64,000 nt of DNA, from the NCBI GenBank assembly GCA_038245115.1, contig JBBRSS010000003.1:3298-67297 (forward strand), given 5' to 3'. Positions 11,079-25,059 of the stretch are shown in pieces (positions within the stretch are counted from its first letter, which is position 1; each line of letters opens with the position of its first letter). The DNA comes from Candidatus Saccharimonadia bacterium (lineage in GTDB: Bacteria; Patescibacteriota; Saccharimonadia; UBA4664). The notes below the pieces were generated by a model. That model worked only from the letters and a program-made list of their open reading frames with translations. It did no database searches and was not told the DNA's origin. The translations under genes and the position numbers were made by a program.

Positions 11079-11235
11079 CCGAACAAAACAAGAACAAGTA
11101 TACGTCACCTCCATTATCACCGACACCCTCGCCACGGGCACCCTTGCGGGCCGCCGCCGCACCTAACCTTCCCGATTTCGCGCGGGCCGGGCATGTATAG
11201 CTGACTTTACATCCAGTCTGCGCTACAATGCCATC

Positions 11236-11806: not shown

Positions 11807-11861
11807 AGTTGACTTTACATTTTCCACGTCGTACATTGGGAACAATAACGAGGGAATCAAT

Positions 11862-12119: not shown

Positions 12120-12122
12120 CCG

Positions 12123-13826
12123 GTGGGATTGCTGCTGGCGGCCTTTGTCGCCGGCCTGCTCACGGCCCTCGCGCCCTGCGTGTTGCCGCTGCTACCGGTG
12201 ATTGTCGGCGGCTCGGTGGCCGGCAATGACCGCCGGCGCCCCTACCTCATTGTGGGCGCGCTGACGCTATCCGTCCTGGTGTTCACCCTCGCCCTCAAGG
12301 CCACCACGGCCTTGCTGGGCGTGCCGGCCGCCGTTTGGACTAGTCTGTCCGGCGGCATCCTGATCGCGCTGGGCCTGCTTACCATCTGGCCGCATACTTA
12401 CGAGCGCTTCATGGCCCGCACCGGCTGGTCGAGCTCCAGCGCCCGGCTGCTCGACGCCACCGGCCAGCGTCGCGGCTGGCTCGGCCCGGTGCTCACCGGC
12501 GCCGCACTCGGCCCAGTATTCGCCAGCTGCAGCCCCACCTTCGCGCTCATTTTGGTTACCATCTTGCCGGTTAGTTTCGGTACCGGGCTGGTCTATTTGC
12601 TGGTCTACTGCGCCGGTCTGGGGCTGTTTTTGCTCGCCCTGGCCCTCATCGGCCGCCGCCTCATCCGTCGCTTGGGCTGGGCCGTCAATCCCACCGGCTG
12701 GTTCAAACGCGGGCTGGGCGTATTATTCGTAATCATCGGGCTGGCTGTCATTACCGGCACCGATAAAACGGTTGAAAATTGGCTGCTCAGCCACCAAATT
12801 CTAGATACTACTAAGGTCGAACAGCAGCTCCTGCCCGGTCGCACCAAGGCTCCCGCAACCACCTCGGGCGGCGTCAAATTCGCCATCGCCGACCCACAGC
12901 CTGCCCCCGAGCTCACCGGCCTCACCAACTGGATCAACTCCAACCCGCTCACCCTGGCCTCCCTCAAGGGCAAAGTGGTGGTCATAGATTTCTGGACGTA
13001 TTCCTGCATCAATTGTATCCACACGCTGCCCTACGTTCAGGGCTGGTACGACAAATACCAGAAAGACGGATTGGTGGTGCTCGGCATACATGCCCCGGAG
13101 TTTGCCTTTGAGCACATTCCGGCCAATGTCGCCAAAGCCGTCAAAGACGATCATCTTACCTACCCGGTAGCGCTCGACAACGACATGGCGACTTGGCAGG
13201 CCTACAGCAACCAGTACTGGCCGGCCGAATACTTCATCGACCGCCAAGGTCGGCTGCGCCACTACAAATTCGGTGAGGGCGACTACGATCAAGATGAAAA
13301 AGTCATCCGCGCCCTCCTGTCCGAAGATGGGTCGCCGGTGGCAGGCGCTGTGAGCACTCCGGCTCCCCAAAGCCATAGCGGGGCCCAGTCGCCCGAAACC
13401 TATCTCGGCTACGAGCGCGCCTCGGGCAATGCCAACTCCGGCGGCCTCACACATAACGCCGCCCATGCCTATGCATTGCCCGGCTCACTCCAGCTCGACC
13501 AATGGGGCCTTGGCGGCTCCTGGACTGTGGGCGGCATGGACACCGCCGCCAGCGCTGGCGCCACCTTGCGCTACCGCTTTTCCGCCAAGCAGGTCTACCT
13601 GGTGATGGGCTCGGCGACCCCCGCCAAAGTCAAAGTGCTCGTCAATGGCCGCCCAGCCGCCGAGTCCGGCCTGGCCGGCGCCGACGTCTCGCCAGACAGC
13701 ACCGCCACCATTTCGGGCTCGCGGCTCTACCGGCTCGTCAAATCCAGCGCCATGCTCAACGGCGCCACTCTCGAGCTCCAGTTCGACTCAGGCATCACCG
13801 TCAACGCCTTCACTTTCGACTCGTAG
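12123..13826 (+). CDS. DipZ-like cytochrome c biogenesis protein (CcdA/DsbD TM domain fused to thioredoxin-like domain plus C-terminal domain)
   Basis: CcdA-like TM domain with two Cys (APCVLP, ASCSPTF), thioredoxin CxxC (WTYSCINC), 567 aa; GTG start. Confidence 0.75.
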   Translation: MGLLLAAFVAGLLTALAPCVLPLLPVIVGGSVAGNDRRRPYLIVGALTLSVLVFTLALKATTALLGVPAAVWTSLSGGILIALGLLTIWPHTYERFMARTGWSSSSARLLDATGQRRGWLGPVLTGAALGPVFASCSPTFALILVTILPVSFGTGLVYLLVYCAGLGLFLLALALIGRRLIRRLGWAVNPTGWFKRGLGVLFVIIGLAVITGTDKTVENWLLSHQILDTTKVEQQLLPGRTKAPATTSGGVKFAIADPQPAPELTGLTNWINSNPLTLASLKGKVVVIDFWTYSCINCIHTLPYVQGWYDKYQKDGLVVLGIHAPEFAFEHIPANVAKAVKDDHLTYPVALDNDMATWQAYSNQYWPAEYFIDRQGRLRHYKFGEGDYDQDEKVIRALLSEDGSPVAGAVSTPAPQSHSGAQSPETYLGYERASGNANSGGLTHNAAHAYALPGSLQLDQWGLGGSWTVGGMDTAASAGATLRYRFSAKQVYLVMGSATPAKVKVLVNGRPAAESGLAGADVSPDSTATISGSRLYRLVKSSAMLNGATLELQFDSGITVNAFTFDS

Positions 13827-13869
13827 GCCGTAAAATTCCCGTATCACCAAATTACCCCACCCAAAAAAC

Positions 13870-14088
13870 CTACCCCCGCCGCTCCACGTCAATCCGGTCA
13901 ACCAACTCGGTGAGCTTAGTCTTGGTGTCGGCCAGAATCGCCTTCACCTCGGCCCGCTGCTCATCGCTGCCGCCCAGCATTATCCGCTGAAACAACCGCG
14001 ATATATCGCCCAGCTCCACACTAAACTCCCGCGACCGGGCATGCAGCTGCTTGCGCTTCTCGGACCACAAATTCTTCTCAGTCGCCAT
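13870..14088 (-). CDS. Hypothetical 72-aa protein
   Basis: AGGAGG Shine-Dalgarno 7 nt upstream on the minus strand; charged helical composition. Confidence 0.4.
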   Translation of the reverse strand: MATEKNLWSEKRKQLHARSREFSVELGDISRLFQRIMLGGSDEQRAEVKAILADTKTKLTELVDRIDVERRG

Positions 14089-14103
14089 ATGCGCCTCCTG
14101 CCT

Positions 14104-14145
14104 CTAGTATAATCTCCTCATGACCGCCGACCCCCCCAGATGCGG
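14104..14145 (+). repeat. Copy A of a duplicated ~40-nt promoter/start segment
   Basis: CTAGTATAATCTCCTCATGACCGCCGACCCCCC... vs copy B CTAGATATAGTATCCTCATGACCCCCGACCCCCGC... Confidence 0.4.
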
Positions 14146-14201
14146 TTTTCGAAACCGAATTACGTGTTCGCTTTTTGTTCATAATACGATAAAATACAGA
14201 T

Positions 14202-14303
14202 ATGATTGTCTTCGTAGACGAATCCGGAATTCACCTCAAAACCGGCCACAGCGTGTTTGTGGTTGTCCAAATCGATCGCGCTTCAGGCGCTCGTTGGCTT
14301 TAA
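14202..14303 (+). pseudogene. Remnant N-terminus of a DUF3800-like protein (33 codons)
   Basis: MIVFVDESGIH...FVVVQIDRA resembles the DUF3800 start (M.IY.DESG); terminates after 33 aa in an AT-rich noncoding stretch. Confidence 0.3.
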
Positions 14304-14448
14304 AACGGCATAAAAAATACCACCCCTTGCGGAGTGGTCAGCTGGTCCGGGTAGCCCGTAGGGCTTTTCCATTCGGAATTTGTCCCCGGTAGCTCGTTAC
14401 AGGATGATACTATCATAAAACGCCAGTACCAGTAAATAACACTATCAA

Positions 14449-14491
14449 CTAGATATAGTATCCTCATGACCCCCGACCCCCGCATATACGG
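14449..14491 (+). repeat. Copy B of the duplicated promoter/start segment
   Basis: See copy A; copy B precedes a 68-aa ORF (14466-14672) of uncertain reality. Confidence 0.4.
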
Positions 14492-14845
14492 CCACATCGC
14501 GCCCTACCCCCACGGTCTCATCAACCAGGGCTCTGGCAACGCCACCGCCCGCTCCATCCAGCTCCGCCAAGGCGGCACCCTCAACGAGCCCGCCCTCTTC
14601 GAACTCTTCCGCGCCGTCATCGCGTATAATTGGGCGGCTGGCGGAAGCTCCGAATGTTCAAATAAAGCATAACCTAGCTTCTAAACCGAAAGACCTTTGA
14701 ATTATTTACATAACTATACCCTTTAGCCTTGATAAGCCCATGTGATACAACTCTAAAAAAATTAGCATAAGCGTGATAGAAATTATGAGTTTGACTAATT
14801 CGCGCCGATCACCCAAACTACAGCCATAATTCCAGGGAATCAGTT

Positions 14846-15382
14846 ATGTCATCTTATCGTCGCGCCTATACATATGCCGCCCTTCAACCTTACTTAAGCA
14901 AGCCCATCCCACTCATCCAGCTCAAATACCTCACCCGGCCCTCGCTAGCTGAGCAAAAAGCGATGGTCTTGCCGTCACCCTGCGCATTCTGTGGCCGCAC
15001 CTGGGGCGGAGTTGGATCCGGGGCGAAAGACGGTAGCTCCATCATCTGCGAGCGGTGCGCCATCAGAAACTTTCAGCTCAACGAGGGCTTCAAAACACTA
15101 ACTGCCGCCAGAGCCTACCGGCGCCGTCTCTTCGATGTGGGCTACCTGTGGTTAGAAATGCTTCTTGATGAGTACATAGCCCTCCACGAACTCAATAGCT
15201 ACGAGGACGTCTCGCCGGAAGCCTATGGCCGCATCAGTGACCTTGCCACCTTTGTAATGAATAGTTCCACAACCACCGCCCAAAAAGTTCGACTGCATAA
15301 CACCCCAGATCAAGCCATGATCGAGCAAAACCTCCGCAAGTTCATCACCCCCGCAGTGGAGCGCTTGCTTCGCCAAGGATAA
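14846..15382 (+). CDS. Hypothetical protein with Cys4 zinc-ribbon (CAFC...CERC)
   Basis: AGGGAA RBS; CxxC-x17-CxxC pair near the N-terminus; 178 aa. Confidence 0.45.
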   Translation: MSSYRRAYTYAALQPYLSKPIPLIQLKYLTRPSLAEQKAMVLPSPCAFCGRTWGGVGSGAKDGSSIICERCAIRNFQLNEGFKTLTAARAYRRRLFDVGYLWLEMLLDEYIALHELNSYEDVSPEAYGRISDLATFVMNSSTTTAQKVRLHNTPDQAMIEQNLRKFITPAVERLLRQG

Positions 15383-15569
15383 AACGTACGGCTGGCCTGA
15401 CATCCCCGGCCGATACAAGGTCAACCATGACGGAAAAATTGTTACCTTGACGCAACCCGCGAAGCTGTCCACGCCAAGCCTATCGCTGCAGAGCCCGCGT
15501 TACTACCTGCTCGAAGACATAAAACAGTCAAAGGATCTCGATGAACTTACGCAGCGGGCATTTGGGTGA
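15383..15569 (+). pseudogene. NUMOD4-like (HNH homing-endonuclease N-terminal motif) fragment without a start codon, +1 frame relative to the preceding ORF
   Basis: +1-frame translation YGWPDIPGRYKVNHDGKIVTL matches the NUMOD4 pattern W.DI.G..Y.VS..G.V.S; no ATG; ends at TGA 15567-15569. Confidence 0.25.
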
Positions 15570-15657
15570 TAGCTCCAAATCTTGCTACAACGAATTATCG
15601 CAGTAGAGCGTAGTGTGCAGTTGACAGAGAAACAAGAGCTGATACACTGTATAGGTC

Positions 15658-16224
15658 ATGAAAACCTTGAGCAACATATCGACGATCCAGTCTGGCTTCA
15701 CATTTCGCGAGGCAGTCTTCCATGACCCGGAAGGTGACGTGAACATCATTCAGGCAAAAGATATCCATGATGGGTCGATACATTTCGCCGAACTGCCAAA
15801 AGTCCAGGGTGTATCATTGCGCGCCACACGGCTTACTGGCAACATTGTGCTACTCTCAGCGCGCGGCAGCTTCCGGGCGGCGGCATGTAGCTTCGCTGAG
15901 CCAGCCGTGGCAGCATCATCCCTCTATGTTATTTGGCCTGACGATGCTCAGGCAGACCCTGAGTTTCTGTCACTCTATCTGAACAGCCCAGTGGCCCAGG
16001 CATACTTCGCTCAGAATTCAACAGGATCATCTATTAAGACACTTCTCATTGGTACGCTCCGTAACCTGCCCGTTCCCGATGTGCCACTCGATCGCCAAGC
16101 TAAGATCGTCAGATTGCGGAAGAATCAACAGCAACAGCATACTATCCTCGAGCGCCGCATCGCCATAAACCAAGCCATTCTCACAGAATTAATCACCACC
16201 GCATCACAAGGAGCCGCCGCATGA
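15658..16224 (+). CDS. hsdS: Type I R-M specificity subunit, half-size HsdS (single target-recognition domain)
   Basis: A TRD-like region plus a conserved HsdS C-terminal helix; stop overlaps the hsdM start (ATGA). Confidence 0.7.
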   Translation: MKTLSNISTIQSGFTFREAVFHDPEGDVNIIQAKDIHDGSIHFAELPKVQGVSLRATRLTGNIVLLSARGSFRAAACSFAEPAVAASSLYVIWPDDAQADPEFLSLYLNSPVAQAYFAQNSTGSSIKTLLIGTLRNLPVPDVPLDRQAKIVRLRKNQQQQHTILERRIAINQAILTELITTASQGAAA

Positions 16225-17735
16225 CCGCCAAATCCTACACCCAAGAAGAGCTCAACGGAATCCTGTGGAACGCCGCAGATTCATCCCGCACCTCTCTCGA
16301 TGGCGGGGTCTACAAAGATTACGTGCTTACCATGCTATTCTTCAAGTACCTCAGTGACTTATCGAAAAAGCAGATAGAGGTCTATCGTCAGCGATTCGCA
16401 GGTGACGTCGAGCGTATCACCAGCAAAATAAAGGCCGAGCGTTTTTACCTGCCCGTCGAAGCTACCTTCGACTACGTCTACGCCAAGAAGGAAGAAGATA
16501 ATATCGGCGAGGAGATCAACAAGGCCCTCCACCGCATTGAAGATATCAACAGGTCCAAGCTCGAAGGCGTCTTCAGTGTCGACTTCAACTCAGAATCCAC
16601 CCTCGGTAAGCTCGAGCAACGCAACAAGATGCTGCGACACCTGCTCGACGACTTCAACGGCATCGACCTGGCACATATAAATGAAGACGTCATCGGTAAC
16701 TCCTATATGTACCTCATCGAGAAGTTCGGTGCCGACGCCGGCAAGAAAGCCGGAGAATTTTTTACGGTCAAATCCGTCGCCAGCCTCGTCGCCAGGCTCG
16801 CCCAACCCAAGCCGGGCGACCGCATTTGCGACCCCGCCGTCGGCAGTGGCGGCCTGCTACTTCTGGCTGGCGCCGAAGTCGAAAAGCAGGGCTCGAACAA
16901 TTACGCGCTATATGGCCAAGAGTCCACCGGCAGCACCTACCAGCTCGCGCGTATGAACATGTTTTTGCACGGTAAAGACTCCGCCCACCTCGAATGGGGT
17001 GATACCTTGAACAACCCATTGTTCGTCGAGAACGACCGCCTCATGAAGTTCGACGTTTGTGTAGCCAATCCGCCCTTCTCACTCAAGAAATGGGGGGCCG
17101 AAAACGCCGAGAGTGATCGCTACAAGCGTTTCTGGCGCGGCATCCCGCCCAAAGACAAGGGCGACTACGCCTTCGTCACTCACATGGTAGAAACTGCCAA
17201 ACCAAAAACTGGCCGCATCGCCGTCATCGTCCCCCACGGCGTTCTTTTCCGCGGTGGTGTCGAAGGCAAAATCCGCGAAGCCTTCCTGCGCGAGAATATC
17301 ATTGATGCCGTCATTGGCCTGCCCGCCGGGCTCTTCCAGACTACCGGCATCCCCGTCGCCATCCTCGTGATCGACCGTTCCCGCGAAGTTGGCGGCGCCA
17401 ACCATAGCAAAAAAGACGTACTCTTTATTGAAGCCTCCAAGCAATTCAAGCCCGGCAAGGCCCGCAACAGCCTTAAGCCCGAGCATATCGATACCATTTT
17501 CAATACCTTCATCGCGCGCCAAGATGTCGACAAATTTGCCCACGTCGCCACCTTCGCCGAAATCCAGGAAAACGAATTCAACCTTAACATCACCCGCTAT
17601 GTTGATACCTTCGTCGAAGAGGCGGAAATCGACATCCAGGCTAACCTCAAAGAGCTCGAAGCCCTCAAGCCTGAGTTGGCTCGACTTGAAGCCCAGATGG
17701 ACGACTACCTAAAGCAGCTGGGGATTAAACCATGA
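16221..17735 (+). CDS. hsdM: Type I R-M DNA methyltransferase subunit HsdM
   Basis: N6-adenine MTase motifs: VANPPFSLKKW (motif IV) and DPAVGSGGLL (motif I); HsdM N-domain. Confidence 0.9.
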   Translation: MTAKSYTQEELNGILWNAADSSRTSLDGGVYKDYVLTMLFFKYLSDLSKKQIEVYRQRFAGDVERITSKIKAERFYLPVEATFDYVYAKKEEDNIGEEINKALHRIEDINRSKLEGVFSVDFNSESTLGKLEQRNKMLRHLLDDFNGIDLAHINEDVIGNSYMYLIEKFGADAGKKAGEFFTVKSVASLVARLAQPKPGDRICDPAVGSGGLLLLAGAEVEKQGSNNYALYGQESTGSTYQLARMNMFLHGKDSAHLEWGDTLNNPLFVENDRLMKFDVCVANPPFSLKKWGAENAESDRYKRFWRGIPPKDKGDYAFVTHMVETAKPKTGRIAVIVPHGVLFRGGVEGKIREAFLRENIIDAVIGLPAGLFQTTGIPVAILVIDRSREVGGANHSKKDVLFIEASKQFKPGKARNSLKPEHIDTIFNTFIARQDVDKFAHVATFAEIQENEFNLNITRYVDTFVEEAEIDIQANLKELEALKPELARLEAQMDDYLKQLGIKP

Positions 17736-17953
17736 GCGTCCAACCTCACGAAGGCGGCTTCCTTTTTGAGTCGACTAAACTACCAGAAACCAGCAATGTG
17801 CAAAAATTGCACGTTGCAGATTTCACCAAACGATTTGCTTACTACTGTCTGGACGCGGTTACTCGGGTTTTCCACAACCATTTCGAGGATGTCCTCGAAA
17901 TGGTATTTGTCCGCTCCAGTGCTAAAAACACCGTTGTAAGTGGCACGAAATGA
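17732..17953 (+). CDS. Small hypothetical protein translationally coupled between hsdM and the KilA-N gene
   Basis: ATGA overlaps at both ends (17732 and 17950). Confidence 0.3.
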   Translation: MSVQPHEGGFLFESTKLPETSNVQKLHVADFTKRFAYYCLDAVTRVFHNHFEDVLEMVFVRSSAKNTVVSGTK

Positions 17954-18798
17954 AAAAGATCACTGCCAAAGACGTGAGCATTTACGTTACTCAAGCACAT
18001 AATGCCGACTTCATCTCTCTCACGGATATGGCAAGATACCGGGATGAAGAACGAAGTGATTATATAATCCAAAACTGGATGCGCAATCGCAGTACCATTG
18101 AGTTCATTGGCATCTGGGAGACCATTCACAACCCTAGTTTTAAATCCATCGAATTCGATGGATTTAAAAACGAAGCCGGTTCCAATAGCTTCTCACTCAC
18201 GCCTAAGAAGTGGATCGAGACTACGAACGCAACCGGCCTGATCACCCGAAAGGGCAAGTACGGCGGCGGTACTTTTGCCCACGCCGACATTGCTCTAGAG
18301 TTTGCCGGTTGGCTTTCGCCAGAATTCAAACTATACGTAATCAAAGAATTTCAGCGCCTCAAAGATGACGAAAGTACTCGTCAGGCCCTGGGCTGGGATA
18401 CCAAGCGTACGCTGGCCAAAATCAATTACCGCATCCATACAGACGCCATCAAGCAGCATATTATTCCCGCAAAACTATCTGCCACCCAAGCAGGTATAGT
18501 TTATGCAAATGAAGCCGACGTGCTCAACAAGGCCCTATTCGGCATGACGGCCAAAGAATGGCGTACCGCTAATCCCAAACAAACTGGCAACATTCGCGAC
18601 TACGCCGAAGCCTCACAGCTTGTCTGTCTATCCAACCTTGAAAGCCTCAACGCCGAATTCATCCGCGCCGGCTACTCGCAACCAGACAGGCTCATCAAAC
18701 TCAACGAAAGCGCGATCATCCAAATGAAATCGTTGGCCCAAAACCGGGCGATCCAAGCGCTGAGTAATCTGACCGCAAAACAGGAAAGGGACAAGTAA
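17950..18798 (+). CDS. KilA-N domain DNA-binding protein embedded in the R-M operon
   Basis: FISLTDMARY...GTFAHADIALEFAGWLSPEFKLYV is the KilA-N/APSES-type signature. Confidence 0.7.
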   Translation: MKKITAKDVSIYVTQAHNADFISLTDMARYRDEERSDYIIQNWMRNRSTIEFIGIWETIHNPSFKSIEFDGFKNEAGSNSFSLTPKKWIETTNATGLITRKGKYGGGTFAHADIALEFAGWLSPEFKLYVIKEFQRLKDDESTRQALGWDTKRTLAKINYRIHTDAIKQHIIPAKLSATQAGIVYANEADVLNKALFGMTAKEWRTANPKQTGNIRDYAEASQLVCLSNLESLNAEFIRAGYSQPDRLIKLNESAIIQMKSLAQNRAIQALSNLTAKQERDK

Positions 18799-20043
18799 AT
18801 GAGTAGCCGTAAATACGTGCGGTTAAGCAGCATAGCAGATGTCCAAACCGGACCGTTCGGAAGCCTTTTTCATGAGGGTGACTATGTAGAATATGGTATG
18901 CCGATGATTACTGTCGAGAATATTAGAGACAGCAGAATTGCTCTTACGCCTGGAACGCCTATGGTTAGTATTCCAGACGCAGAAAGGTTGAAAAAGTTCG
19001 CGCTCAGAGAAGGCGATGTCGTATTTAGCCGGGTCGGTTGTGTCGACAGATCTGCACATGCAACGTTAGCGCAGCAGGGGTGGCTGTTTTCGGGTCGTTT
19101 GCTAAGGGTCAGAGCGAGACCCGGAACCGACGCCAAATTTCTCCACTATTATTTTTCTTACGAGGCCACTAAAATCCTCATTCGAAATATGGCCGTCGGC
19201 GGTACCATGGCATCCCTCAATACGGGCATCCTGAAATCATTGCCAATCCCAGATATTAAACTTGCAGAGCAAAACGGCATCGTGGGGATCCTTGAGATTT
19301 GGGATGAGGCGATCGATACTCTGACGGCAGTGATCTATGCGTATACGAGAGCGAAGAATGGCTTAGCGCAAGAATTGCTTTCGGGAGCACGGCGATTGGC
19401 CGGCTTTACAAGCAGTTGGCTGCCGGTGCGACTCGGCGAAACCACGAGTTTACTAAAAGACGGAACCCACGGCTCACATATAGACGTAAAGGACGGAATA
19501 CCCCTTCTGAGCGCGAAAGACATTGGGGACGGGCAGATCGATTTTCAAAACGAACCCCGACTAATTTCTGTTGGCGACTTCAACCACATTCACAATAAGT
19601 ACAAAATACAAGACGAAGATATCTTACTAAGTCTTGTTGGAAGTATTGGGAAGGTCGCAATTGTCGCCAACTACCATGATAATTTCACACTTCAGAGAAG
19701 CGTTGGAATTATACGATTTATCAAGCAAAACAGTCGCTTTATGTTTTATCTCTTCCGGGCTGCTAAATTTCAGAATGAACTCTCAAAAATCCAAAATAAG
19801 GGTGCTCAAGGAGGGGTCTACCTCGGGAATCTCTCTAAATTGGTACTAAACTTGCCTACGTTGCCTGAGCAGGCCGCAATCGCCAATATTCTCACTGCCT
19901 CCGATGATGAAATTGCGACGCTTATGCGAAAACTTGCACTCTTCAAGGAACAGCGCGAATATCTCCTCAACAACTTAATGAGCGGAAAAATCCGCACGCC
20001 CGAAAGCCTCAAAATACCCACCCAGGAGCCTACCCATGCATGA
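18799..20043 (+). CDS. hsdS: Type I R-M specificity subunit HsdS (two TRDs)
   Basis: Two TRDs separated by a conserved central repeat; 414 aa; start abuts the KilA-N stop; 8-nt overlap with hsdR. Confidence 0.85.
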   Translation: MSSRKYVRLSSIADVQTGPFGSLFHEGDYVEYGMPMITVENIRDSRIALTPGTPMVSIPDAERLKKFALREGDVVFSRVGCVDRSAHATLAQQGWLFSGRLLRVRARPGTDAKFLHYYFSYEATKILIRNMAVGGTMASLNTGILKSLPIPDIKLAEQNGIVGILEIWDEAIDTLTAVIYAYTRAKNGLAQELLSGARRLAGFTSSWLPVRLGETTSLLKDGTHGSHIDVKDGIPLLSAKDIGDGQIDFQNEPRLISVGDFNHIHNKYKIQDEDILLSLVGSIGKVAIVANYHDNFTLQRSVGIIRFIKQNSRFMFYLFRAAKFQNELSKIQNKGAQGGVYLGNLSKLVLNLPTLPEQAAIANILTASDDEIATLMRKLALFKEQREYLLNNLMSGKIRTPESLKIPTQEPTHA

Positions 20044-23000
20044 CATCGATTTTGACGAGGCCAAACAATCACAGCTTCCGTTTGTAGAGCTGCTGATCAA
20101 CCTCGGCTATACGTACATACCCGCAAAAGAGGTGCTGCGCCAGCGCGGCGACGATACTTCGAATTTCATCCTCAAGGATGTGGCGGCGCGCGCCCTCATG
20201 AACATCAACCAGTATGAGTATGATGACTCGCTGCACAATTTCAGTGACAAAGATGTGCACGACGCCATCGACGAGCTGGAGAACCTTCAGTTTGAAGGCC
20301 TCATCGACACGTCCAGAACCGTCTTCAATACCATTATGCCAACGCGCGGCGGCCGAACTATCAAGGTGCTACTCGACGGGAAATATGAATCCAAGAGCTT
20401 CAGGTTCATTGATTTTGACGAGCCCACCAATAATGAATTCAACGTTACGGTCGAATATCCCGCCAGCGGGAAGGGCAACATTCGCCCGGATATTGTGTGT
20501 TTCGTAAACGGGATACCCTTCGTTGTCATTGAGAACAAGAAATCCAGCGTGGATGTGGACGAGGCAATGAACCAGCTGGTGCGCAATCAGGGCGTGGATC
20601 GGTGCCCGAGGCTGTTTATCTATCCGCAGTTGCTCATTGCTACCAATGGCAAAGACATGCGCTACGGCACCACCGGCACGCCGGCTAAGTTTTATGCCAA
20701 CTGGCGCGAAAAAGATACAGCTGACACGGTTATTGAAGAGCGCGCAAAAGTGCTGATGGCTCAGCCGATCGAGCGGGGTATTTATCGGACCTTGCTATCT
20801 GATTTGAACGGCTCCGTTTTTGGGCATGCCCAAAAACTAAGTCGGGAAGTGACCGCTCAGGATCGTGCCGTGGTCGCGATGTTCGACAAAGCCCGTCTGC
20901 TTGATCTTACGAAAAACTACATTCTCTATGATGCTGGAACCAAGAAGGTCATGCGCTACCAACAGTATTTTGCCATTCACAAGATTCTAAAGCGCATTCA
21001 AAACGTGGAGCCGTCTGATGTCGGCGAACGCCGCAAAGGCGGGATCGTCTGGCACACCCAAGGCTCTGGTAAATCTCTGACGATGGTCATGTTTGTGCGG
21101 GCGTTGATCGAGGATGCGAGCATCGTGAACCCGCGAGTGATCATCGTGACCGACCGTAAGGACCTCGATCGGCAGATTAAGGGCACTTTTAACAATGCTG
21201 GGCTGAAGAAAAACGTCATTCAGGCTACTAGTGGCGAGCACCTGCTGGAGCTGATCAAGGATCGCGATAAGCGCATCATTACCACGCTCGTGCACAAGTT
21301 CCAAAGTGCCGGCCGTAATCGGGCCGACTTTGACGTGGACCACGACGCCAATATCTTTGTGCTCATCGATGAGGCCCACCGCTCGCAGGGCGGTGACGCC
21401 AATAGTGAAATGAACCTTATTATTCCCAACGCCTGTTACATCGCCTTTACGGGCACGCCTTTGCTCAAAAATGAGCGTTCGCGCGGCAAGTTTGGTGACT
21501 TTATCGACAAGTACACCATTGATGACGCCCTCGCGGATAAGATCATTTTGCCGCTGATTTATGAAGGTCGGTATGTGGACCTCAAGCAAGATAAGGATGA
21601 GATTGATCGCCTCATTGAGCGCCTTACCCAGGGCTTAAGTGATGAGCAAAAACGACAGCTCCAAAAGAATGTTCAGCAGGGGATTATTAAAGATAACCCA
21701 AAGCGGATCATAGAGATCGCCTACGACATTGAACGACACTATATAGACAAGCTCCAAGGCTCGGGCCTCAAAGCTCAGATTGTAGCGCCCTCAAAGTTCT
21801 CGGCCGTCATGATGCAGAAGTTCTTTGCCGATAGCGGCAAGGTCAACACTGCCCTAGTGATCTCCGACGAAAACGGCATCATTGCCGAAGGCGACGACCA
21901 CAAAAAAGAGGTGGATGATTATCTGAAGGATGTGAAGGAGAAATACCAGAGCCTCCTAACGTATGAAAAAGATGTTGTTTATAGCTTTGTAAATTACGAT
22001 GACAGCGTCGAGATTTTGATTGTGGTCGATAAACTTTTGACCGGCTTCGATGCGCCTCGCAACACGATCCTTTATCTGGCGCGCGAACTGACTGATCACA
22101 ACTTACTGCAGGCTATAGCTCGAGTGAACCGGCTCTATGAAAACCCTAGCTTGCCAAAGACTGCCGGGTTTATCATCGATTATTCCGAGAATGCTCAAAA
22201 TATTCACACCGCCATGCAGTTGTTCGGCAATTACGACGAAGATGACGTAAAGGGCGCGCTTGTAGACGTTAAGGACAAGATCAACGAGCTAGAAGCCGCC
22301 TACGCCGCACTCCATGATCTATTTAACGGCGTCGCTCATGATGACGAGGCCTATCTACAATTCTTGGCCGACGAGCCAACTCGCAAACAATTCGTGTTTG
22401 CGCTTAACGACTTCGTGCGGCTATTTGGCGAATCGATGACGCTTCAGGACTTCTCACTCAAATTCCCGCAGTTGCACTTGTACCGAGAGGAATGTAAGAA
22501 ATTCCTAGAGCTCCGAAAATCTGCCAATTTGCGGTACGCTGACCTCACGGATCTGCGGCCGTATAAGCTCGCGCTCATCAAAATCATGGATGACAACATC
22601 AAGGCGGACGAAGCCGAGCTGCTGACCGAGCAGATCGATATTACCAATAAAGAATTGTTTGAAAAGGCTATCGAAGAATTGGGCTCTGATAAGTCAAAAG
22701 CCGAGGCGATTGCGGCGCAAACCCAGAAAACAATCACCGAGCGACAGTCGTCCGATCCTGAGTTCTACGCACGTTTTTCAAAGCGCATTACCGAGATTAT
22801 CGATGCCATGCGCGAGAAGAAGCTGGCGGATATTGAAGCGCTTAAGCAGCTAAGACTCATTAGCGACGACGTGTTGGACAAAAAAGACGATGAGCTCCCA
22901 GAGGCCGTTGCAAAGAGCCCAGGGGCGGACATTTTATATCGTAACCTGGCTGGGAGCGTGGCGGGTATTGATGGAAATGAGTATGAACGGGCAGTGCTCG

Positions 23001-23212
23001 GGATGAATGAGGTTCTGCGGCAGGCAGCTACGGTCGACTGGTGGCGCAGCCACGAAACCAAACGGCAGATGCGCAGCAAGCTCGATGACTACCTGTACGA
23101 CGTCGTTAAAACAGAGCTGGGTGCCCAGCTTACCTATGAGCGGATTGAAAACATTATCGTGGAGGTCATGACGTTGGCTGAGCATAATCATGATGTATTT
23201 ACTCAGCAATGA
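20036..23212 (+). CDS. hsdR: Type I restriction enzyme R subunit HsdR
   Basis: N-terminal nuclease region, SF2 helicase motifs (TGSGKS Walker A, VLIDEAHRSQ DEAH box), 1058 aa. Confidence 0.9.
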   Translation: MHDIDFDEAKQSQLPFVELLINLGYTYIPAKEVLRQRGDDTSNFILKDVAARALMNINQYEYDDSLHNFSDKDVHDAIDELENLQFEGLIDTSRTVFNTIMPTRGGRTIKVLLDGKYESKSFRFIDFDEPTNNEFNVTVEYPASGKGNIRPDIVCFVNGIPFVVIENKKSSVDVDEAMNQLVRNQGVDRCPRLFIYPQLLIATNGKDMRYGTTGTPAKFYANWREKDTADTVIEERAKVLMAQPIERGIYRTLLSDLNGSVFGHAQKLSREVTAQDRAVVAMFDKARLLDLTKNYILYDAGTKKVMRYQQYFAIHKILKRIQNVEPSDVGERRKGGIVWHTQGSGKSLTMVMFVRALIEDASIVNPRVIIVTDRKDLDRQIKGTFNNAGLKKNVIQATSGEHLLELIKDRDKRIITTLVHKFQSAGRNRADFDVDHDANIFVLIDEAHRSQGGDANSEMNLIIPNACYIAFTGTPLLKNERSRGKFGDFIDKYTIDDALADKIILPLIYEGRYVDLKQDKDEIDRLIERLTQGLSDEQKRQLQKNVQQGIIKDNPKRIIEIAYDIERHYIDKLQGSGLKAQIVAPSKFSAVMMQKFFADSGKVNTALVISDENGIIAEGDDHKKEVDDYLKDVKEKYQSLLTYEKDVVYSFVNYDDSVEILIVVDKLLTGFDAPRNTILYLARELTDHNLLQAIARVNRLYENPSLPKTAGFIIDYSENAQNIHTAMQLFGNYDEDDVKGALVDVKDKINELEAAYAALHDLFNGVAHDDEAYLQFLADEPTRKQFVFALNDFVRLFGESMTLQDFSLKFPQLHLYREECKKFLELRKSANLRYADLTDLRPYKLALIKIMDDNIKADEAELLTEQIDITNKELFEKAIEELGSDKSKAEAIAAQTQKTITERQSSDPEFYARFSKRITEIIDAMREKKLADIEALKQLRLISDDVLDKKDDELPEAVAKSPGADILYRNLAGSVAGIDGNEYERAVLGMNEVLRQAATVDWWRSHETKRQMRSKLDDYLYDVVKTELGAQLTYERIENIIVEVMTLAEHNHDVFTQQ

Positions 23213-23910
23213 AACGTAATTTCCGCTATGGTGCGTACGAATATGAATACGAACTGATTTCGGAAAACCGCAAAAGCCTCAAGTTGACGGTGATGCCCAG
23301 CCTGGGCATCATTTTACGGGCTCCCGTCGACGCCGACGACCAGCGTATTAAGCGGTTTCTCGAAAAGAAATGGCGCTGGCTCGAGAAGCAACTTCAAACA
23401 TTTGAGCGCTACCACAAAAAAAGTTATGCACGCAGCTATATCTCGGGTGAAAGTTTTATGTACTTAGGCCGGCAATATGAGCTCATCGTTGCACGCGGGG
23501 AGATCGATAGTGTTGGCCTTGTGCGCGGAAAGATCCGTGTCATCACATCACTTGGAGCATCAAAACCCGAGTACACGAAAATGCTCCTGGAAAGTTGGTA
23601 CCGCAATCGCCGCAATCTCATATTCCGTGATTCCTACGTCAAATGCCTGGGTTCCTTTGATTTCGCTGCGTCACCTAAATTTCTTATTAAAGAGATGGAT
23701 AAGCGGTGGGGGAGTTATACAAACGCGGGGAATATTGTGCTTAATCCACGTCTCATTGAGGCCGATAAACGAGCCATAGAGTATGTCATCGTACACGAAT
23801 TGTGTCATGCATCTGTTCGAAATCACGGCCCGCAATTTATATCGCTCCTAAACGAAAAACTACCCAATTGGCGGGAAGTAAAAGATAGATTAGAGCTCAG
23901 GCACGGCTAG
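23209..23910 (+). CDS. YgjP/DUF45-like M48-family metallopeptidase commonly linked to hsdR
   Basis: HELCHASVRNHG HExxH motif near the C-terminus; ATGA overlap with the hsdR stop. Confidence 0.7.
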   Translation: MKRNFRYGAYEYEYELISENRKSLKLTVMPSLGIILRAPVDADDQRIKRFLEKKWRWLEKQLQTFERYHKKSYARSYISGESFMYLGRQYELIVARGEIDSVGLVRGKIRVITSLGASKPEYTKMLLESWYRNRRNLIFRDSYVKCLGSFDFAASPKFLIKEMDKRWGSYTNAGNIVLNPRLIEADKRAIEYVIVHELCHASVRNHGPQFISLLNEKLPNWREVKDRLELRHG

Positions 23911-24015
23911 ACCAATAAGTGGCCATAGTGGCTAATTCTTGGTGAAGTCGGCTCGATTTTAGTCGGCGGACCCGGCTAAACCGGCTATTTGTATACGGCC
24001 GCACTCAGCCAAAAT

Positions 24016-25059
24016 TTAGCCCCCAGTAACCGTGAAACTCCCCCCGTCACTGCCAATCGCTGATGGTGTGGCGATGGCGTGGCCGCGCCTGTTGACGAGG
24101 ACAATTTTCTGAGCACCGCTGCCGATCAGGTTTTGGGTGACACCGTTTGAGGTCGCCAGGGAGTCGGTGAAGCTCACCGAGCCAAAAACGTCGAACGGCA
24201 CCAGGCCGCCGGAGGCGTAGCTGGGGTCTTCTTGGATCCACTCGGCGCTCGATTGGGTACTGGCGTAGGTGACGGTAATCGAAAAGCTCTCGTGCTGGGT
24301 GACGTCACTGATGCTGATAAGCCACTGCGAGCCGCTCAATAGGTGAATGTCGGCGCTCATCACGTCGCCCGCGGCAACATGCATGCTGGGGATTGGCGTT
24401 TCGGGCGCCGGCAGCATCTCGTAAAACGCAATTGTGCTCGCCTGGCCGTCTTTGGTCACGGTATCGTCGGTGCCGACTTGGATGAGATCCGAGCCGGTCA
24501 CCCCGCCGATGCCAATCCAGGCCGCGTCGCCCGATTCTGATACTCCGTTGCCGCCTACGTGCGGGACTGTCCACGATCCGCTGACGCCGGTGAAATTCCC
24601 GGCGGGGGACATGTAGCCCGACCAGTTCGTCGAATAATATGCCGTGGCGGCCGGAGGGGGCGTGCCTTGACCGAGTCCGGGGGTCGGGGTTCCGCTGGGC
24701 GAAGGAATTGTCGTCGGCGCGGGGGTGGCGGCTGGGGTCACCGGCACCAGATGGCTCACTACGCTGTTGGGCGCCGGCGTTACTGGCGGCAAGGGCTTCG
24801 GCGCAATTGCCACTCGGCGCACCGGAGCTTTTGCGGGGGTGGGCTTGGGTTTGCTCGTGGGCGCCGGCGTGTGGACGGCCGGGGTGGGCGTAGCTGGCGC
24901 GGCCAGCGTGATAGCCCCGACGTGCGCCTGCATCTGCTTATGCGCACTCAGATTAGCCGCCGCCTGAATGCCAACCCCAAAACCGCCGAGGACCACTAAG
25001 GTCGCGACGAGTCCCGAACGTAAGAATGTTTTTGGCTGCTGTTTGTGTTTTTTTCTCAT
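24016..25059 (-). CDS. Membrane-anchored peptidase G1 (eqolisin/Peptidase_A4)-like protein with Pro/Thr-rich linker
   Basis: N-terminal TM; YYSTNWSGY...GNFTGVSGSWTVPHV and AAWIGIGG resemble the eqolisin SNWAGAV and W.GIDG motifs. Confidence 0.5.
   Translation of the reverse strand: MRKKHKQQPKTFLRSGLVATLVVLGGFGVGIQAAANLSAHKQMQAHVGAITLAAPATPTPAVHTPAPTSKPKPTPAKAPVRRVAIAPKPLPPVTPAPNSVVSHLVPVTPAATPAPTTIPSPSGTPTPGLGQGTPPPAATAYYSTNWSGYMSPAGNFTGVSGSWTVPHVGGNGVSESGDAAWIGIGGVTGSDLIQVGTDDTVTKDGQASTIAFYEMLPAPETPIPSMHVAAGDVMSADIHLLSGSQWLISISDVTQHESFSITVTYASTQSSAEWIQEDPSYASGGLVPFDVFGSVSFTDSLATSNGVTQNLIGSGAQKIVLVNRRGHAIATPSAIGSDGGSFTVTGG

What the first reader, a model, noticed from the sequence alone, without database searches (positions are those of the whole stretch)
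14100..23910. Type I R-M island with half-hsdS, KilA-N insert, second hsdS, hsdR and YgjP-like peptidase; AT-rich decayed leader region
Gene order is half-size hsdS (one TRD) - hsdM - 73-aa ORF - KilA-N protein - full hsdS - hsdR - DUF45/M48 peptidase, all translationally coupled (ATGA overlaps). Two S genes imply two possible specificities or a homodimeric half-S. A KilA-N DNA-binding protein between M and S parallels the placement of accessory genes such as prrC or rhuM in other Type I loci. The locus is preceded by a ~750-bp AT-rich stretch that stands out against the ~57% GC background; it carries a DUF3800 start fragment, a duplicated start region and, 3' of the zinc-ribbon ORF, a NUMOD4-like fragment, which suggests horizontal acquisition and erosion of neighbouring defence or mobile genes.
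Basis: partly seen in the sequence, partly recalled or inferred. Interest (0 to 1): 0.5.

Follow-up and report, generated by a model that had tools for sequence, protein, structure and literature searches.

The report
Restriction operon with palindrome-bearing passenger genes
An intact, horizontally acquired Type I restriction-modification operon in a Saccharimonadia (CPR) genome carries passenger genes, and two of them contain a perfect ~30-bp DNA palindrome written in-frame into the protein code, which is kept across bacteria, archaea and phages even at the cost of changing amino acids.

Summary
The gene order is real: half-size hsdS, hsdM, 73-aa ORF, KilA-N, full hsdS, hsdR, YgjP peptidase. 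All are stop/start coupled. The half-S is not a pseudogene. It belongs to a large family of ~190-aa proteins, and five related loci share the frame half-S, hsdM, variable cargo, hsdS, hsdR, YgjP. The cargo slot holds Bro-N, DUF4145, TIR, DUF3800 or KilA-N. The KilA-N protein matches PADLOC candidate PDC-S22 over its full length; that family is an untested candidate. The 73-aa ORF is a 5' remnant of a Bro-N gene. A 15-kb block (about 10.46-25.64 kb) is absent from a close relative. The DUF3800 fragment is backed by an intact DUF3800-II RNA. The NUMOD4 fragment and a distinct 750-bp AT-rich leader are not supported.

The unexpected part lies inside the passengers. KilA-N holds a perfect 32-bp palindrome (18138-18169) and orf73 a 28-bp one (17877-17904). 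Across about 170 KilA-N homologues the arms covary, and synonymous variation collapses only there. The same element occurs on its own in phage genomes that lack the gene. What recognises it is unknown. My best guess is an operator or hairpin bound by a protein.

The parts
10460..25640 (.). Strain-specific block between ligA and gatCAB. It is absent from a close relative that has 93% GatB identity.
   Evidence: blastn of L302 against the window: L302 5535 corresponds to window 10457, and L302 5624 to window 25643.
14108..14491 (+). Two copies of a 38-nt 'start region' (14108-14145 and 14454-14491), 84% identical.
   Evidence: the repeat finder family D2.
14202..14300 (+). 33-codon ORF MIVFVDESGIH..., probably the 5' remnant of a DUF3800 gene.
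   Evidence: Translation. The N-terminal match to the L093 DUF3800 protein is weak and there is no Pfam hit. The assignment rests on the adjacent DUF3800-II RNA.
14309..14400 (-). DUF3800-II RNA (14336-14400) followed by a terminator-like hairpin and T-run (14338-14309).
   Evidence: Rfam RF02961, 61.2 bits, gathering score 43.2, E 6.6e-11, full length. Terminator scan.
14846..15382 (+). 178-aa CxxC...CxxC ORF of unknown family, preceded by a 36% GC stretch (14650-14850).
   Evidence: ORF list. No hit in Pfam, NCBIfam, PADLOC or PHROGs. GC content.
15621..15648 (+). Best sigma-70-like promoter match of the region (TTGACA-16-TACACT with TG), 10 nt upstream of the half-S start codon.
   Evidence: Consensus scan, 10 of 12 matches. 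This is a consensus match only.
15658..16224 (+). Half-size HsdS: one TRD plus one C-terminal coiled-coil helix.
   Evidence: Methylase_S 30.5 bits. PADLOC Specificity_I. Conserved ~190-aa family. PDB Esub1 8VSR, E 2e-5.
16221..17735 (+). HsdM methyltransferase.
   Evidence: N6_Mtase 322 bits and HsdM_N. TIGR00497 above its cut-off. PDB 7VRU, E 5e-90.
17732..17953 (+). orf73: truncated 5' remnant of a Bro-N gene. It stays in frame and is coupled at both ends by ATGA overlaps.
   Evidence: 31% identity over 72 aa to the N-terminus of the L090 Bro-N protein, E 8e-8. 57% identity to the equivalent 65-aa ORF after hsdM in L090. No Pfam hit.
17877..17904 (.). Bro-N-type in-frame palindrome ACCATTTCGAGGATGTCCTCGAAATGGT, which encodes NHFEDVLEMV.
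   Evidence: Perfect 13-nt arms. A 35-nt block is invariant between orf73, the L090/L089 orf65 and the full Bro-N genes. Pairs 2-14 (all but the outermost and the central pair) are 97-100% Watson-Crick in 72 Bro-N homologues, with a covarying outer pair.
17950..18798 (+). KilA-N protein of the PADLOC PDC-S22 family: KilA-N domain at residues 16-138 plus a helical C-terminal domain.
   Evidence: PF04383 69.6 bits. PDC-S22 E 2.6e-129, full length. phrog_2657. More than 8000 homologues.
18138..18169 (.). Perfect 32-bp in-frame palindrome TTTTAAATCCATCGAA|TTCGATGGATTTAAAA, which encodes FKSIEFDGFK (aa 64-73).
   Evidence: the repeat finder I3. Covariation in 81 sequences: 95.9% paired, 8 of 16 pairs changed on both sides, 0 of 500 shuffles reach this. 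Synonymous entropy collapses only at codons 63-73.
18799..20043 (+). Full-length HsdS with two TRDs.
   Evidence: Methylase_S, two stretches. PADLOC Specificity_I E 1e-50.
20036..23212 (+). HsdR restriction/translocase subunit.
   Evidence: HSDR_N, SWI2_SNF2, ResIII and T1R_D3. TIGR00348 468 bits.
23209..23910 (+). YgjP-like (DUF45) / SprT-like zinc metallopeptidase, coupled to hsdR.
   Evidence: PF01863 171 bits. Found in the same position in L012, L089, L090 and L091.

Best explanation
The locus is an intact, horizontally acquired Type I restriction-modification operon in a Candidatus Saccharimonadia chromosome.

It belongs to a lineage with a fixed frame: a half-size HsdS first, translationally coupled to hsdM; then a slot that accepts foreign passenger genes; then a full-length hsdS, hsdR and a coupled YgjP-type zinc peptidase. 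M2S1 would methylate, and R2M2S1 would cut unmodified DNA at the bipartite site read by the full S (established for Type I systems, not shown here). The half-S most likely dimerises through its single helix to imitate a full S. That would give the same HsdM a second, symmetric specificity (inferred).

In this genome the slot holds two things. One is the remnant of an older Bro-N passenger (orf73), kept in frame as a translational bridge. The other is a newer passenger, a KilA-N DNA-binding protein of the PDC-S22 candidate-defence family. It has no promoter of its own and is expressed from the operon.

Both passenger ORFs contain an in-frame ~30-bp perfect palindrome, and selection holds it at the nucleotide level. 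I think these are cis-acting elements recognised by a protein, as a symmetric duplex site that can also fold into a 14-bp hairpin. The most likely reader is the DNA-binding protein encoded by the same gene. An operator inside the reading frame would give a promoter-less, mobile gene a form of self-regulation that works wherever it lands. The stand-alone copies in phage genomes could be what such proteins target in trans.

My confidence by step:
- R-M operon and cargo slot: about 0.9.
- Palindromes under direct nucleotide-level selection: about 0.85.
- Recognition by their own protein, with autoregulation: about 0.3.
For: R-M frame. All domains are present and intact. The genes are stop/start coupled.

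The same frame occurs in L012, L089, L090, L091 and L093 with different cargo. That cargo is two Bro-N genes plus an AAA_15 ATPase, with KilA-N between S and R; Bro-N plus DUF4145; ThsB_TIR plus a 138-aa ORF; or DUF3800 plus its RNA.

Half-S. There are 407 clusters at E<=1e-10, and nearly all of the best 150 are half-size, 180-230 aa. Residues are conserved across 9 homologues. Divergence from L090 is M 93%, R 83%, half-S 56%, full S 30%, which is the pattern expected of a specificity subunit. The nearest solved structure, Esub1, is a homodimer of a TRD-like head plus a helix that superposes on a full S.

Acquisition. A 15.2-kb block is absent from the syntenic relative L302, and its GC content is lower than that of the flanks.

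KilA-N as passenger. It matches PDC-S22 over its full length. Homologues share 57-72% identity across bacteria and archaea. They are found in Type I operons, in PLD-SNF2 helicase/Eco57I-type methylase operons, in Tn3 elements, and in prophage and satellite lysogeny modules next to the integrase.

orf73. It resembles the Bro-N N-terminus and has a counterpart at the same position in L090.

KilA-N palindrome.
- Covariation, including pairs that change amino acids: P/G, H/V, S/G, L/Q, G/A.
- Synonymous entropy is 0.85-0.95 of the maximum along the gene and 0-0.3 at codons 63-73.
- It is present in viral copies, with further compensatory variants.
- Arms of at least 12 perfect bp occur at the same codon in 45 of 80 genes. 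Against this, about 40 palindromes of that size are scattered over 1.19 Mb of flanks.

Bro-N palindrome. H58, F59, E60, L63 and E64 each use a single codon in 72 sequences, and the outer pair covaries C-G with T-A, changing V to I.

Sequence-specific recognition. The blocks TTTAAA and TCGAATTCGA are exact in at least 70 non-coding or foreign-context copies in viral contigs, where coding cannot explain them. They are also present in at least 20 complete phage genomes. In phage LR1 the element lies just upstream of a promoter-like box next to the integrase gene.

Need for a self-encoded or universal reader. Archaeal copies keep the palindrome.
Against: - No methylome or activity data exist, so two specificities are unproven.
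- Esub1, the solved half-S-like protein, did not clearly bind HsdM in vitro (PMC11754733).
- A simple duplex operator does not require the five variable arm positions to be complementary, yet they are: 4.4 of 5 in coding copies.
- In some viral copies the four central bases lose symmetry while the stems stay paired, which fits a stem-loop better than a duplex site.
- G.U and A.C mismatches are about equal (35 against 26 once the K/R column is removed), so the strand and the type of nucleic acid are undetermined.
- KilA-N-bearing loci have no second copy nearby.
- Phages that carry the free element lack this KilA-N family, so own-protein recognition is not established.
- The KilA-N domain was modelled poorly (pLDDT below 50). 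The only fold match, DdrC, is weak.
- PDC-S22 is a guilt-by-embedding candidate with no published phenotype that I could find.
Confidence: 0.6

Rival explanations
1. The palindromes act as RNA hairpins in the mRNA (a 14-bp stem with a 4-nt loop). They would control mRNA stability, processing or ribosome transit, and so limit expression of a potentially toxic DNA-binding protein.
For: The arms covary. The central four bases can be AAUU, AUUU or UUUU while the stems stay intact. R73 is always AGA or AGG, which keeps a U.G pair. Predicted hairpin energy is -16 kcal/mol. Free copies often start at or just after a stop codon inside operons.
Against: Synonymous changes that would give G.U pairs are not used: K65 AAG and F69 TTT are absent from the 81 genome copies, and F69 TTT appears only in a few viral copies. 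There is no overall excess of G.U over A.C. Archaea, most of which lack RNase III, keep the element. Many intergenic copies have exact sequence blocks but poorly complementary arms. There is no Rfam family and no U-tract.
Confidence: 0.25
2. The palindromes are recombination linkers or small mobile palindromic elements. These would be conserved ~30-bp segments at module boundaries where diverged phage and cargo genes exchange parts, and they would be propagated by that exchange.
For: - orf73 and the L090 orf65 are Bro-N 5' fragments that end 50-60 nt after the palindrome.
- L073 holds an isolated palindrome fragment.
- The exact Bro-type 26-mer occurs in unrelated ORFs and intergenic DNA.
- The KilA-type element sits at gene boundaries in many phages, next to varied genes.
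- The cargo slot differs between otherwise near-identical operons.
Against: A linker needs sequence identity, not symmetry, so covarying arms are unexplained. In KilA-N genes the element is not at a domain boundary and is present in essentially every member. There is only one copy per phage genome. No transposase or recombinase is consistently linked.
Confidence: 0.15
3. The palindromes have no function. Once formed, a quasi-palindrome would be kept perfect by template-switch 'correction' during replication, so that a change in one arm is copied to the other.
For: This would produce apparent covariation without selection. The amino-acid positions involved are tolerant of change.
Against: It does not explain the fixed outer and central blocks or the sharp ends. 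It also does not explain persistence in about 170 sequences from many phyla while the rest of the gene is saturated at synonymous sites. Nor does it explain independent conservation in non-coding phage contexts.
Confidence: 0.07
4. The half-size HsdS is not a specificity subunit of this enzyme. It is a homodimeric DNA-binding regulator, like a controller protein, that sets the timing or level of operon expression.
For: It is the first gene, directly behind the best promoter match. The closest solved relative, Esub1, is a homodimer that did not clearly bind HsdM and was interpreted as regulator-like. Its TRD is less variable than those of the full S: 56% against 30% identity.
Against: It is always translationally coupled to hsdM and retains the S-type C-terminal helix that contacts M. 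It diverges much faster than M and R, as specificity subunits do. Truncated S subunits are known to work as dimers in Type I enzymes (my own knowledge: EcoDXXI and EcoR124I truncation studies).
Confidence: 0.2
5. The short hsdS is a truncated pseudogene and the locus is decaying.
For: Neighbouring genes are eroded (DUF3800 and Bro-N remnants). The homologous locus L089 has a broken hsdS and hsdR.
Against: The length is conserved at 180-230 aa in hundreds of clusters. Columns are invariant across 9 homologues. All seven ORFs in this window are intact and coupled.
Confidence: 0.03

Closest known systems
Type I R-M systems with embedded accessory genes (PrrC, RhuM-type, Abi genes) and the 'guilt-by-embedding' candidates of Payne et al. 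(bioRxiv 10.1101/2024.01.29.577857), specifically PADLOC PDC-S22
   Same: A foreign gene sits between hsd genes on the same strand. The KilA-N protein matches the PDC-S22 model end to end (E 2.6e-129).
   Different: PDC-S22 has no reported phenotype or mechanism. Most family members are not embedded at all: about 10 of 71 in GTDB genomes lie next to R-M or helicase-methylase genes. The internal palindrome has not been described in anything I could find.
Half-size HsdS proteins: engineered EcoDXXI/EcoR124I truncations that act as dimers (my own knowledge) and Esub1 of S. pyogenes (PDB 8VSQ/8VSR, PMC11754733)
   Same: One TRD plus one coiled-coil helix, about 190 aa. Esub1 is the best PDB hit and forms a homodimer that mimics a full S.
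   Different: Here the half-S is the first gene of a complete Type I operon that also encodes a full S, and this pairing is conserved in five related loci. Esub1 is encoded away from hsd genes and its binding to HsdM was not shown.
Phase-variable hsdS loci (for example the pneumococcal ivr/SpnD39III locus and the Mycoplasma and Bacteroides shufflons)
   Same: More than one hsdS-type gene per locus, one of them partial.
   Different: There are no inverted or direct repeats shared by the two S genes and no recombinase in the operon. The half-S is a complete, separately translated gene.
Palindromic sites that lie inside the gene of the protein that binds them, such as parS within spo0J/parB (my own knowledge), and APSES-type sites with a CGA core (SCB CNCGAAA and the Xbp1 CTCGA site; recalled from memory, a lead only)
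   Same: A symmetric DNA site inside a coding sequence. The half-sites CTCGAAA (Bro-N type) and TCGAA (KilA-N type) resemble the sites of fungal APSES domains, which are related to KilA-N.
   Different: parS does not covary and does not force amino-acid changes. No binding has been shown here. The elements also exist in genomes that lack the gene.
DUF3800-associated RNA motifs (Weinberg et al. 2017, PMC5737381)
   Same: The DUF3800-II RNA with its terminator lies next to a DUF3800 start and convergent with it, as DUF3800-IX does in L093.
   Different: The partner ORF is reduced to 33 codons. The function of these RNAs is unknown.

Membership tests
Type I restriction-modification system | HsdM with an HsdM_N domain and an N6-adenine methyltransferase domain | tested here: met
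   PF12161 70.9 bits and PF02384 322 bits. TIGR00497 scores 257.8, above its cut-off of 242.75.
Type I restriction-modification system | HsdS with two target recognition domains separated by conserved helices | tested here: met
   Two Methylase_S stretches in 414 aa. PADLOC Specificity_I models are covered end to end.
Type I restriction-modification system | HsdR with an N-terminal nuclease domain and an SF2 translocase | tested here: met
   HSDR_N, SWI2_SNF2, ResIII and T1R_D3. TIGR00348 scores 468 against a cut-off of 284.55.
Type I restriction-modification system | Methylation of a bipartite site and ATP-dependent cleavage of unmodified DNA | not testable with these tools
   This needs a methylome or biochemistry.
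Half-size HsdS (Esub1-like) | A single TRD followed by one dimerisation (coiled-coil) helix, about 190 aa | tested here: met
   Methylase_S covers residues 2-159, followed by a helical tail. Nearly all of the best 150 relatives are 180-230 aa. 8VSR matches at E 2e-5.
Half-size HsdS (Esub1-like) | Homodimerisation and assembly with HsdM | not testable with these tools
   Inferred only, from operon coupling in six loci.
PADLOC PDC-S22 (phage defence candidate) | Full-length match to the PDC-S22 profile | tested here: met
   E 2.6e-129; residues 2-273 align to profile positions 5-275 of 281.
PADLOC PDC-S22 (phage defence candidate) | Protection against phage | not testable with these tools
   I found no experimental report.
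KilA-N domain (PF04383) | Score above the Pfam gathering threshold | tested here: met
   69.6 bits against 23.8.
Bro-N domain (PF02498), for orf73 | Score above the Pfam gathering threshold | tested here: not met
   No Pfam hit. The only evidence is a pairwise match to the N-terminal 72 aa of a genuine Bro-N protein, E 8e-8, so I call it a remnant and not a member.
Phase-variable hsdS shufflon | Repeats shared by the hsdS copies, plus a site-specific recombinase | tested here: not met
   No such repeats in 13500-25500, and no recombinase in the block.
DUF3800-II RNA (RF02961) | Score above the Rfam gathering threshold, next to a DUF3800 gene | tested here: inconclusive
   The RNA scores 61.2 bits against 43.2. 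The partner gene is only a 33-codon fragment with no significant match.
NUMOD4 (claimed fragment at 15384-15566) | Match to the NUMOD4 profile | tested here: not met
   The only hit is DUF7011 at E 0.065.
Intrinsic terminator (for the two palindromes) | A GC-rich stem followed by a U-run | tested here: not met
   The terminator scan does not report them. The stems end in UUUAAAA, or in GGU followed by a mixed sequence.
Any Rfam family (for the two palindromes) | A covariance-model match | tested here: not met
   Nothing at 17877-17904 or 18138-18169, even at E<=1.

The most novel reading that the evidence does not exclude
The in-frame palindromes are a previously undescribed class of autonomous cis-elements, shared between cargo genes of defence loci and temperate phage genomes. 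The KilA-N (PDC-S22) and Bro-N proteins would recognise them. The copy written into the protein's own reading frame would give a promoter-less mobile gene self-regulation that does not depend on context. The free copies in phage genomes would be the targets through which these proteins interfere with, or are exploited by, phages. The genetic code of residues 64-73 would then be subordinate to a DNA or RNA structure across bacteria, archaea and viruses.
Probability: 0.2. Interest if true: 0.85.

Novelty: new variant of a known kind. Interest (0 to 1): 0.62.

Why it matters
The R-M operon alone is a tidy example of a Type I lineage with a built-in cargo slot and a conserved half-size S. It offers a direct test of whether one methyltransferase serves two specificity subunits.

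The palindromes matter more. They show a nucleic-acid element overriding protein sequence in two very widespread families of phage-type DNA-binding proteins, and the same element stands alone in phage genomes. If a protein reads it, the untested defence candidate PDC-S22 gains a concrete, testable target. It would also suggest how promoter-less genes embedded in foreign operons regulate themselves. If the element is a recombination linker, it would help explain the domain and cassette shuffling typical of Bro/KilA genes and of defence islands.

Tried and rejected
- Shufflon or phase variation: no repeats between the S genes.
- tRNA-linked integration: no tRNA within 10 kb of the block.
- Rfam match for the palindromes: none.
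- Terminator role for the palindromes: not reported by the scan.
- Extra operator copies near KilA-N genes: one copy per locus only.
- Strand test by G.U against A.C: no clear asymmetry once the K/R column is removed.
- Fold of the KilA-N protein: the N-terminal domain was modelled at pLDDT below 50, and only a weak DdrC match was found for the helical C-terminus. There is no sequence relative in the PDB.
- Close relatives of the L090 Bro-N gene in viral contigs: none.
- Palindrome in a different KilA family (Javan588 'KilA protein') or in the L012 Bro-N genes: none.
- Exact look-up of the window's own contig: not on record, and cluster names were empty.
- Literature on KilA-N plus palindrome, or on KilA-N embedded in Type I loci: nothing found.
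- DUF45 linkage to Type I systems in the literature: nothing useful, so that link rests on my own four loci.

Full report
**1. What is at the coordinates**

- half-size HsdS, 15658-16224, 188 aa, one Methylase_S domain
- HsdM, 16221-17735
- a 73-aa ORF, 17732-17953
- a KilA-N protein, 17950-18798
- full HsdS, 18799-20043, two TRDs
- HsdR, 20036-23212
- a YgjP-like/SprT-like zinc peptidase, 23209-23910

Pfam, NCBIfam and PADLOC agree on these assignments. The junctions are ATGA overlaps at four boundaries, TAAATG at KilA-N/hsdS, and an 8-nt overlap at hsdS/hsdR. The best promoter-like match in the region (TTGACA-16-TACACT with an upstream TG) ends 10 nt before the half-S start codon. This is a consensus match only.

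**2. Where it sits**

GatB is 82-93% identical to Candidatus Saccharimonadia MAGs. The surrounding genes are chromosomal: ligA, gatCAB, dnaE, clpB, recG.

In a close relative (L302, GatB 93%) the ligA...gatC interval is syntenic, but window 10.46-25.64 kb is replaced by about 90 bp. The acquired or variable block is therefore about 15.2 kb, larger than the 9.8 kb of the finding. The operon is about 50% GC, against 60-68% for the genes around it.

The '750-bp AT-rich leader' is 48.9% GC, no different from the operon. Only 14650-14850 (36% GC) stands out, and the window average is 54.5%, not 57%.

**3. The upstream debris**

The duplicated start region is real.

The 33-codon ORF MIVFVDESG... (14202-14300) cannot be assigned by profile. 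However, an intact DUF3800-II RNA (RF02961, 61.2 bits against a gathering score of 43.2) with its own terminator lies just 3' of it and convergent with it. In L093 a complete DUF3800 gene and a DUF3800-IX RNA have the same arrangement, and they sit in the hsdM-hsdS cargo slot of a related operon. I read the window fragment as a DUF3800 module that lost most of its ORF. The function of these RNAs is unknown (PMC5737381).

The NUMOD4 claim has no support. The 178-aa CxxC ORF matches nothing.

**4. The half-size S is a gene, and the operon frame is a lineage**

Word-based search found eight homologues. One is a 104-aa fragment and the other seven are 186-207 aa. An exhaustive HMMER search found 407 clusters at E<=1e-10, and nearly all of the best 150 are half-size, 180-230 aa. 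Nine sequences share invariant columns across the TRD and the helix.

Every homologue whose contig I could read, and L012, begins the same frame; L093's contig ends soon after its cargo, before any hsdS, hsdR or YgjP. The frame is half-S, hsdM, [cargo], hsdS, hsdR, YgjP. The cargo differs:

| Locus | Cargo between hsdM and hsdS |
|---|---|
| L089, L090 | Bro-N + DUF4145 |
| L091 | ThsB-type TIR + a 138-aa ORF |
| L093 | DUF3800 + RNA |
| L012 | two Bro-N genes + an AAA_15/21 ATPase, with the KilA-N gene between hsdS and hsdR instead |

Between the window and L090 the identities are HsdM 93%, HsdR 83%, YgjP 69%, half-S 56% and full HsdS 30%. The half-S therefore evolves like a specificity determinant, though more slowly than a swappable full S.

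Its best solved relative is Esub1 of S. pyogenes (8VSQ/8VSR, E 2e-5). Esub1 is a homodimer of a TRD-like head and a helix that superposes on a full S. Its authors could not show HsdM binding and favoured a regulator role (PMC11754733).

There are no repeats between the two S genes and no recombinase in the operon, so this is not a shufflon.

My reading is that the half-S dimer supplies a second, symmetric specificity to the same HsdM (inferred). A regulator role is the main rival.

**5. The KilA-N passenger**

The protein matches PADLOC PDC-S22 over its full length (E 2.6e-129) and phrog_2657. PDC families are 'phage defence candidates' found by guilt-by-embedding in BREX, DISARM and Type I loci (bioRxiv 10.1101/2024.01.29.577857). 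I found no functional test.

The family is very large and is 57-72% identical across CPR bacteria, many other phyla and several archaeal lineages.

In 71-73 representative genomes, only a minority of copies are embedded:
- about 7 lie behind a PLD + SNF2 helicase gene, and in 2-3 of these loci an Eco57I/MmeI-type methylase gene lies directly downstream
- 3 lie behind hsdM
- 3 lie next to Tn3 transposase or resolvase
- the rest lie among housekeeping genes

In Staphylococcus phage EW and in Streptococcus satellites the gene lies between the repressor/ImmA genes and the integrase.

So this is a promiscuous single-gene module, not an integral R-M component.

The structure prediction gave a confident helical C-terminal domain but no usable model of the KilA-N domain. 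The only fold match, DdrC, is weak.

**6. The 73-aa ORF**

orf73 has a counterpart at the same place in L090: a 65-aa ORF with ATGA overlaps at both ends and 57% identity over 42 aa. It also aligns with the first 72 residues of the full Bro-N protein of that locus (31% identity, E 8e-8).

It is best read as the 5' remnant of a former Bro-N passenger. It has been kept open and coupled, so that translation runs through from hsdM to the next gene.

**7. The unexpected feature: in-frame palindromes**

*The observation.* repeat finder reported a perfect 16+16 palindrome with no spacer at 18138-18169, inside the KilA-N gene. The only other palindrome of that size in the 64-kb window is GC-rich and lies just past the end of the 643-2484 ORF.

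*Conservation and covariation.* The same element sits at the same codons (F64...K73) in nearly all of 80 homologues from unrelated phyla, and the arms covary:

| 5' arm / 3' arm | Amino acids |
|---|---|
| AAACACATCGAA / TTCGATGTGTTT | H...V |
| AAACCCGTCGAA / TTCGACGGGTTT | P...G |
| AATTCCATCGAA / TTCGATGGAATT | NS...GI |
| AAACTGGTCGAA / TTCGACCAGTTT | L...Q |
| AATGTTACTGAA / TTCAGTAACATT | NVT...SNI |

On an 81-sequence alignment, 95.9% of cells are paired. Eight of 16 pairs change on both sides (124 cells). None of 500 shuffles reaches the observed values for percentage paired, cells changed on both sides, or covariation score. Sliding the partner drops pairing to 67% or less.

*Synonymous sites.* Codon entropy is 0.85-0.95 of its maximum along the whole gene but 0-0.3 at codons 63-73. 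K65 is always AAA, E68 always GAA, F69 always TTC and F72 always TTT.

*Background rate.* Arms of at least 12 perfect bp occur at this position in 45 of 80 genes. Against this, about 40 such palindromes are scattered over 1.19 Mb of flanking DNA.

*The second palindrome.* orf73 has a palindrome at 17877-17904, ACCATTTCGAGGATGTCCTCGAAATGGT. A 35-nt block containing it is invariant between orf73, the L090/L089 orf65 and the full Bro-N genes, while the flanks are diverged.

In 72 Bro-N homologues from metagenomes the 30-bp palindrome GACCATTTCGAGGAT|ATCCTCGAAATGGTC (DHFEDILEMV) is almost invariant at the nucleotide level; L63 is always CTC. The outer pair covaries C-G with T-A, which changes V to I.

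*Shared geometry.* Both palindromes are centred on a codon boundary and on a 6-bp symmetric core (GAATTC, GATATC). Both contain TCGA, and both lie 170-220 nt into the ORF.

**8. The element also exists on its own**

- 50 are inside KilA-N-family ORFs.
- 70 are not. Most of those are intergenic, and the element often starts at or just after the TAA stop of the upstream gene.
- No KilA-N homologue lies in the fetched flanks of those 70.
- Neighbouring genes are varied.

Complementarity of the five free arm positions averages 4.4 of 5 in coding copies and about 3.0 of 5 in the others. Chance would give 1.25.

In annotated complete genomes the element occurs once per genome in at least 20 temperate Firmicutes phages that lack this KilA-N family:
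- Lactobacillus phage LR1: between the integrase and the next gene, just upstream of a promoter-like box
- S. pyogenes prophages: after a small ORF and before the scaffold gene
- Staphylococcus phages DW2 and SP197: at the stop codon of dut

The exact Bro-type 26-mer is likewise found in eight viral contigs, in unrelated ORFs or intergenic DNA.

**9. What the palindromes are**

*Shown.* Selection acts on the nucleotides, not on the peptide, and the element is autonomous.

*Not shown.* What reads it.

*For a stem-loop:*
- The arms covary.
- In some viral copies the four central bases become ATTT or TTTT while the stems stay paired.

*For a sequence-specific duplex site:*
- The TTTAAA and TCGAATTCGA blocks are exact in non-coding copies whose arms pair poorly.
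- Wobble-generating synonymous codons are avoided.
- The half-sites resemble those of APSES domains, which are relatives of KilA-N (from memory; a lead only).

*Strand.* G.U and A.C mismatches are about equal, so the strand, and whether RNA or DNA is involved, is open.

I favour a protein-recognised symmetric site or hairpin that gives a promoter-less mobile gene self-regulation, with the free phage copies as targets in trans (about 0.3). The rivals are an mRNA hairpin (about 0.25), a recombination linker or mobile palindrome (about 0.15), and non-adaptive self-correction (under 0.1).

**10. Verdict**

By itself it is a new member, or a modest variant, of a known kind.

What raises the interest is the pair of code-overriding palindromes inside the passenger genes and their stand-alone copies in phage genomes. 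I could not find them described.

Noticed in passing
L073:9616-9645: An isolated, imperfect copy of the KilA-N palindrome (peptide FNVIEFDWFK). It lies in a short fragment about 650 bp downstream of the intact KilA-N gene and is followed by a terminator-like hairpin. It looks like the relic of a second copy.
   Followed up: partly
L175:5105-5130, L178:517-542, L181:11467-11492: The exact Bro-type palindrome, encoding HHFEDILEMV, lies inside an unrelated 123-129-aa viral ORF. In L174, L176 and L177 it is intergenic, and in L176 it sits between two other hairpins.
   Followed up: partly
L031, L033, L044, L049, L050, L055 (KilA-N gene at about 10000-10800): KilA-N homologues are tightly coupled (gaps of 5 nt or less) behind a ~1100-aa PLD (NgoFVII-type) + SNF2 helicase gene. 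In L033, L049 and L050 a 3.4-4.2-kb gene follows directly downstream, and 2-3 of the downstream neighbours score as Eco57I/MmeI-type methylase. This is a second kind of host operon for this passenger.
   Followed up: partly
L093:5230-5935: A complete DUF3800 gene with a convergent DUF3800-IX RNA occupies the hsdM-hsdS cargo slot of a related operon. This suggests that DUF3800 plus its RNA is itself a defence-type cassette.
   Followed up: partly
window 30081-31281: About 1.2 kb between the NUDIX gene and gatB is absent from the close relative L302. It overlaps the ORFs at 29993-30631 and 30628-31284.
   Followed up: no
window 58331-59954: A large serine recombinase (XisF/CcrB-like, 519 aa, minus strand) lies directly next to tRNA-Leu(tag). 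This may be the edge of another integrated element.
   Followed up: no
window 2488-2524: The only other perfect 16-bp-arm palindrome in the window (GTGGTCGCCCCCGTTA...TAACGGGGGCGACCAC, 5-nt loop). It is GC-rich and lies between convergent genes, so it is probably a bidirectional terminator.
   Followed up: no
L089:13764-18165: In the complete 1.32-Mb genome CP064960 the homologous operon has hsdS split into two ORFs (168 and 250 aa) and hsdR split into two (347 and 723 aa). Half-S, hsdM, Bro-N and YgjP stay intact, so the restriction half is decaying while the methylation half is kept.
   Followed up: no
L386:1501-1530 (Staphylococcus phage DW2) and phage SP197: The KilA-type palindrome begins at the stop codon of the phage dUTPase gene (dut). 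In one copy of the DW2 record that gene is annotated as a putative SaPIbov1 derepressor.
   Followed up: partly
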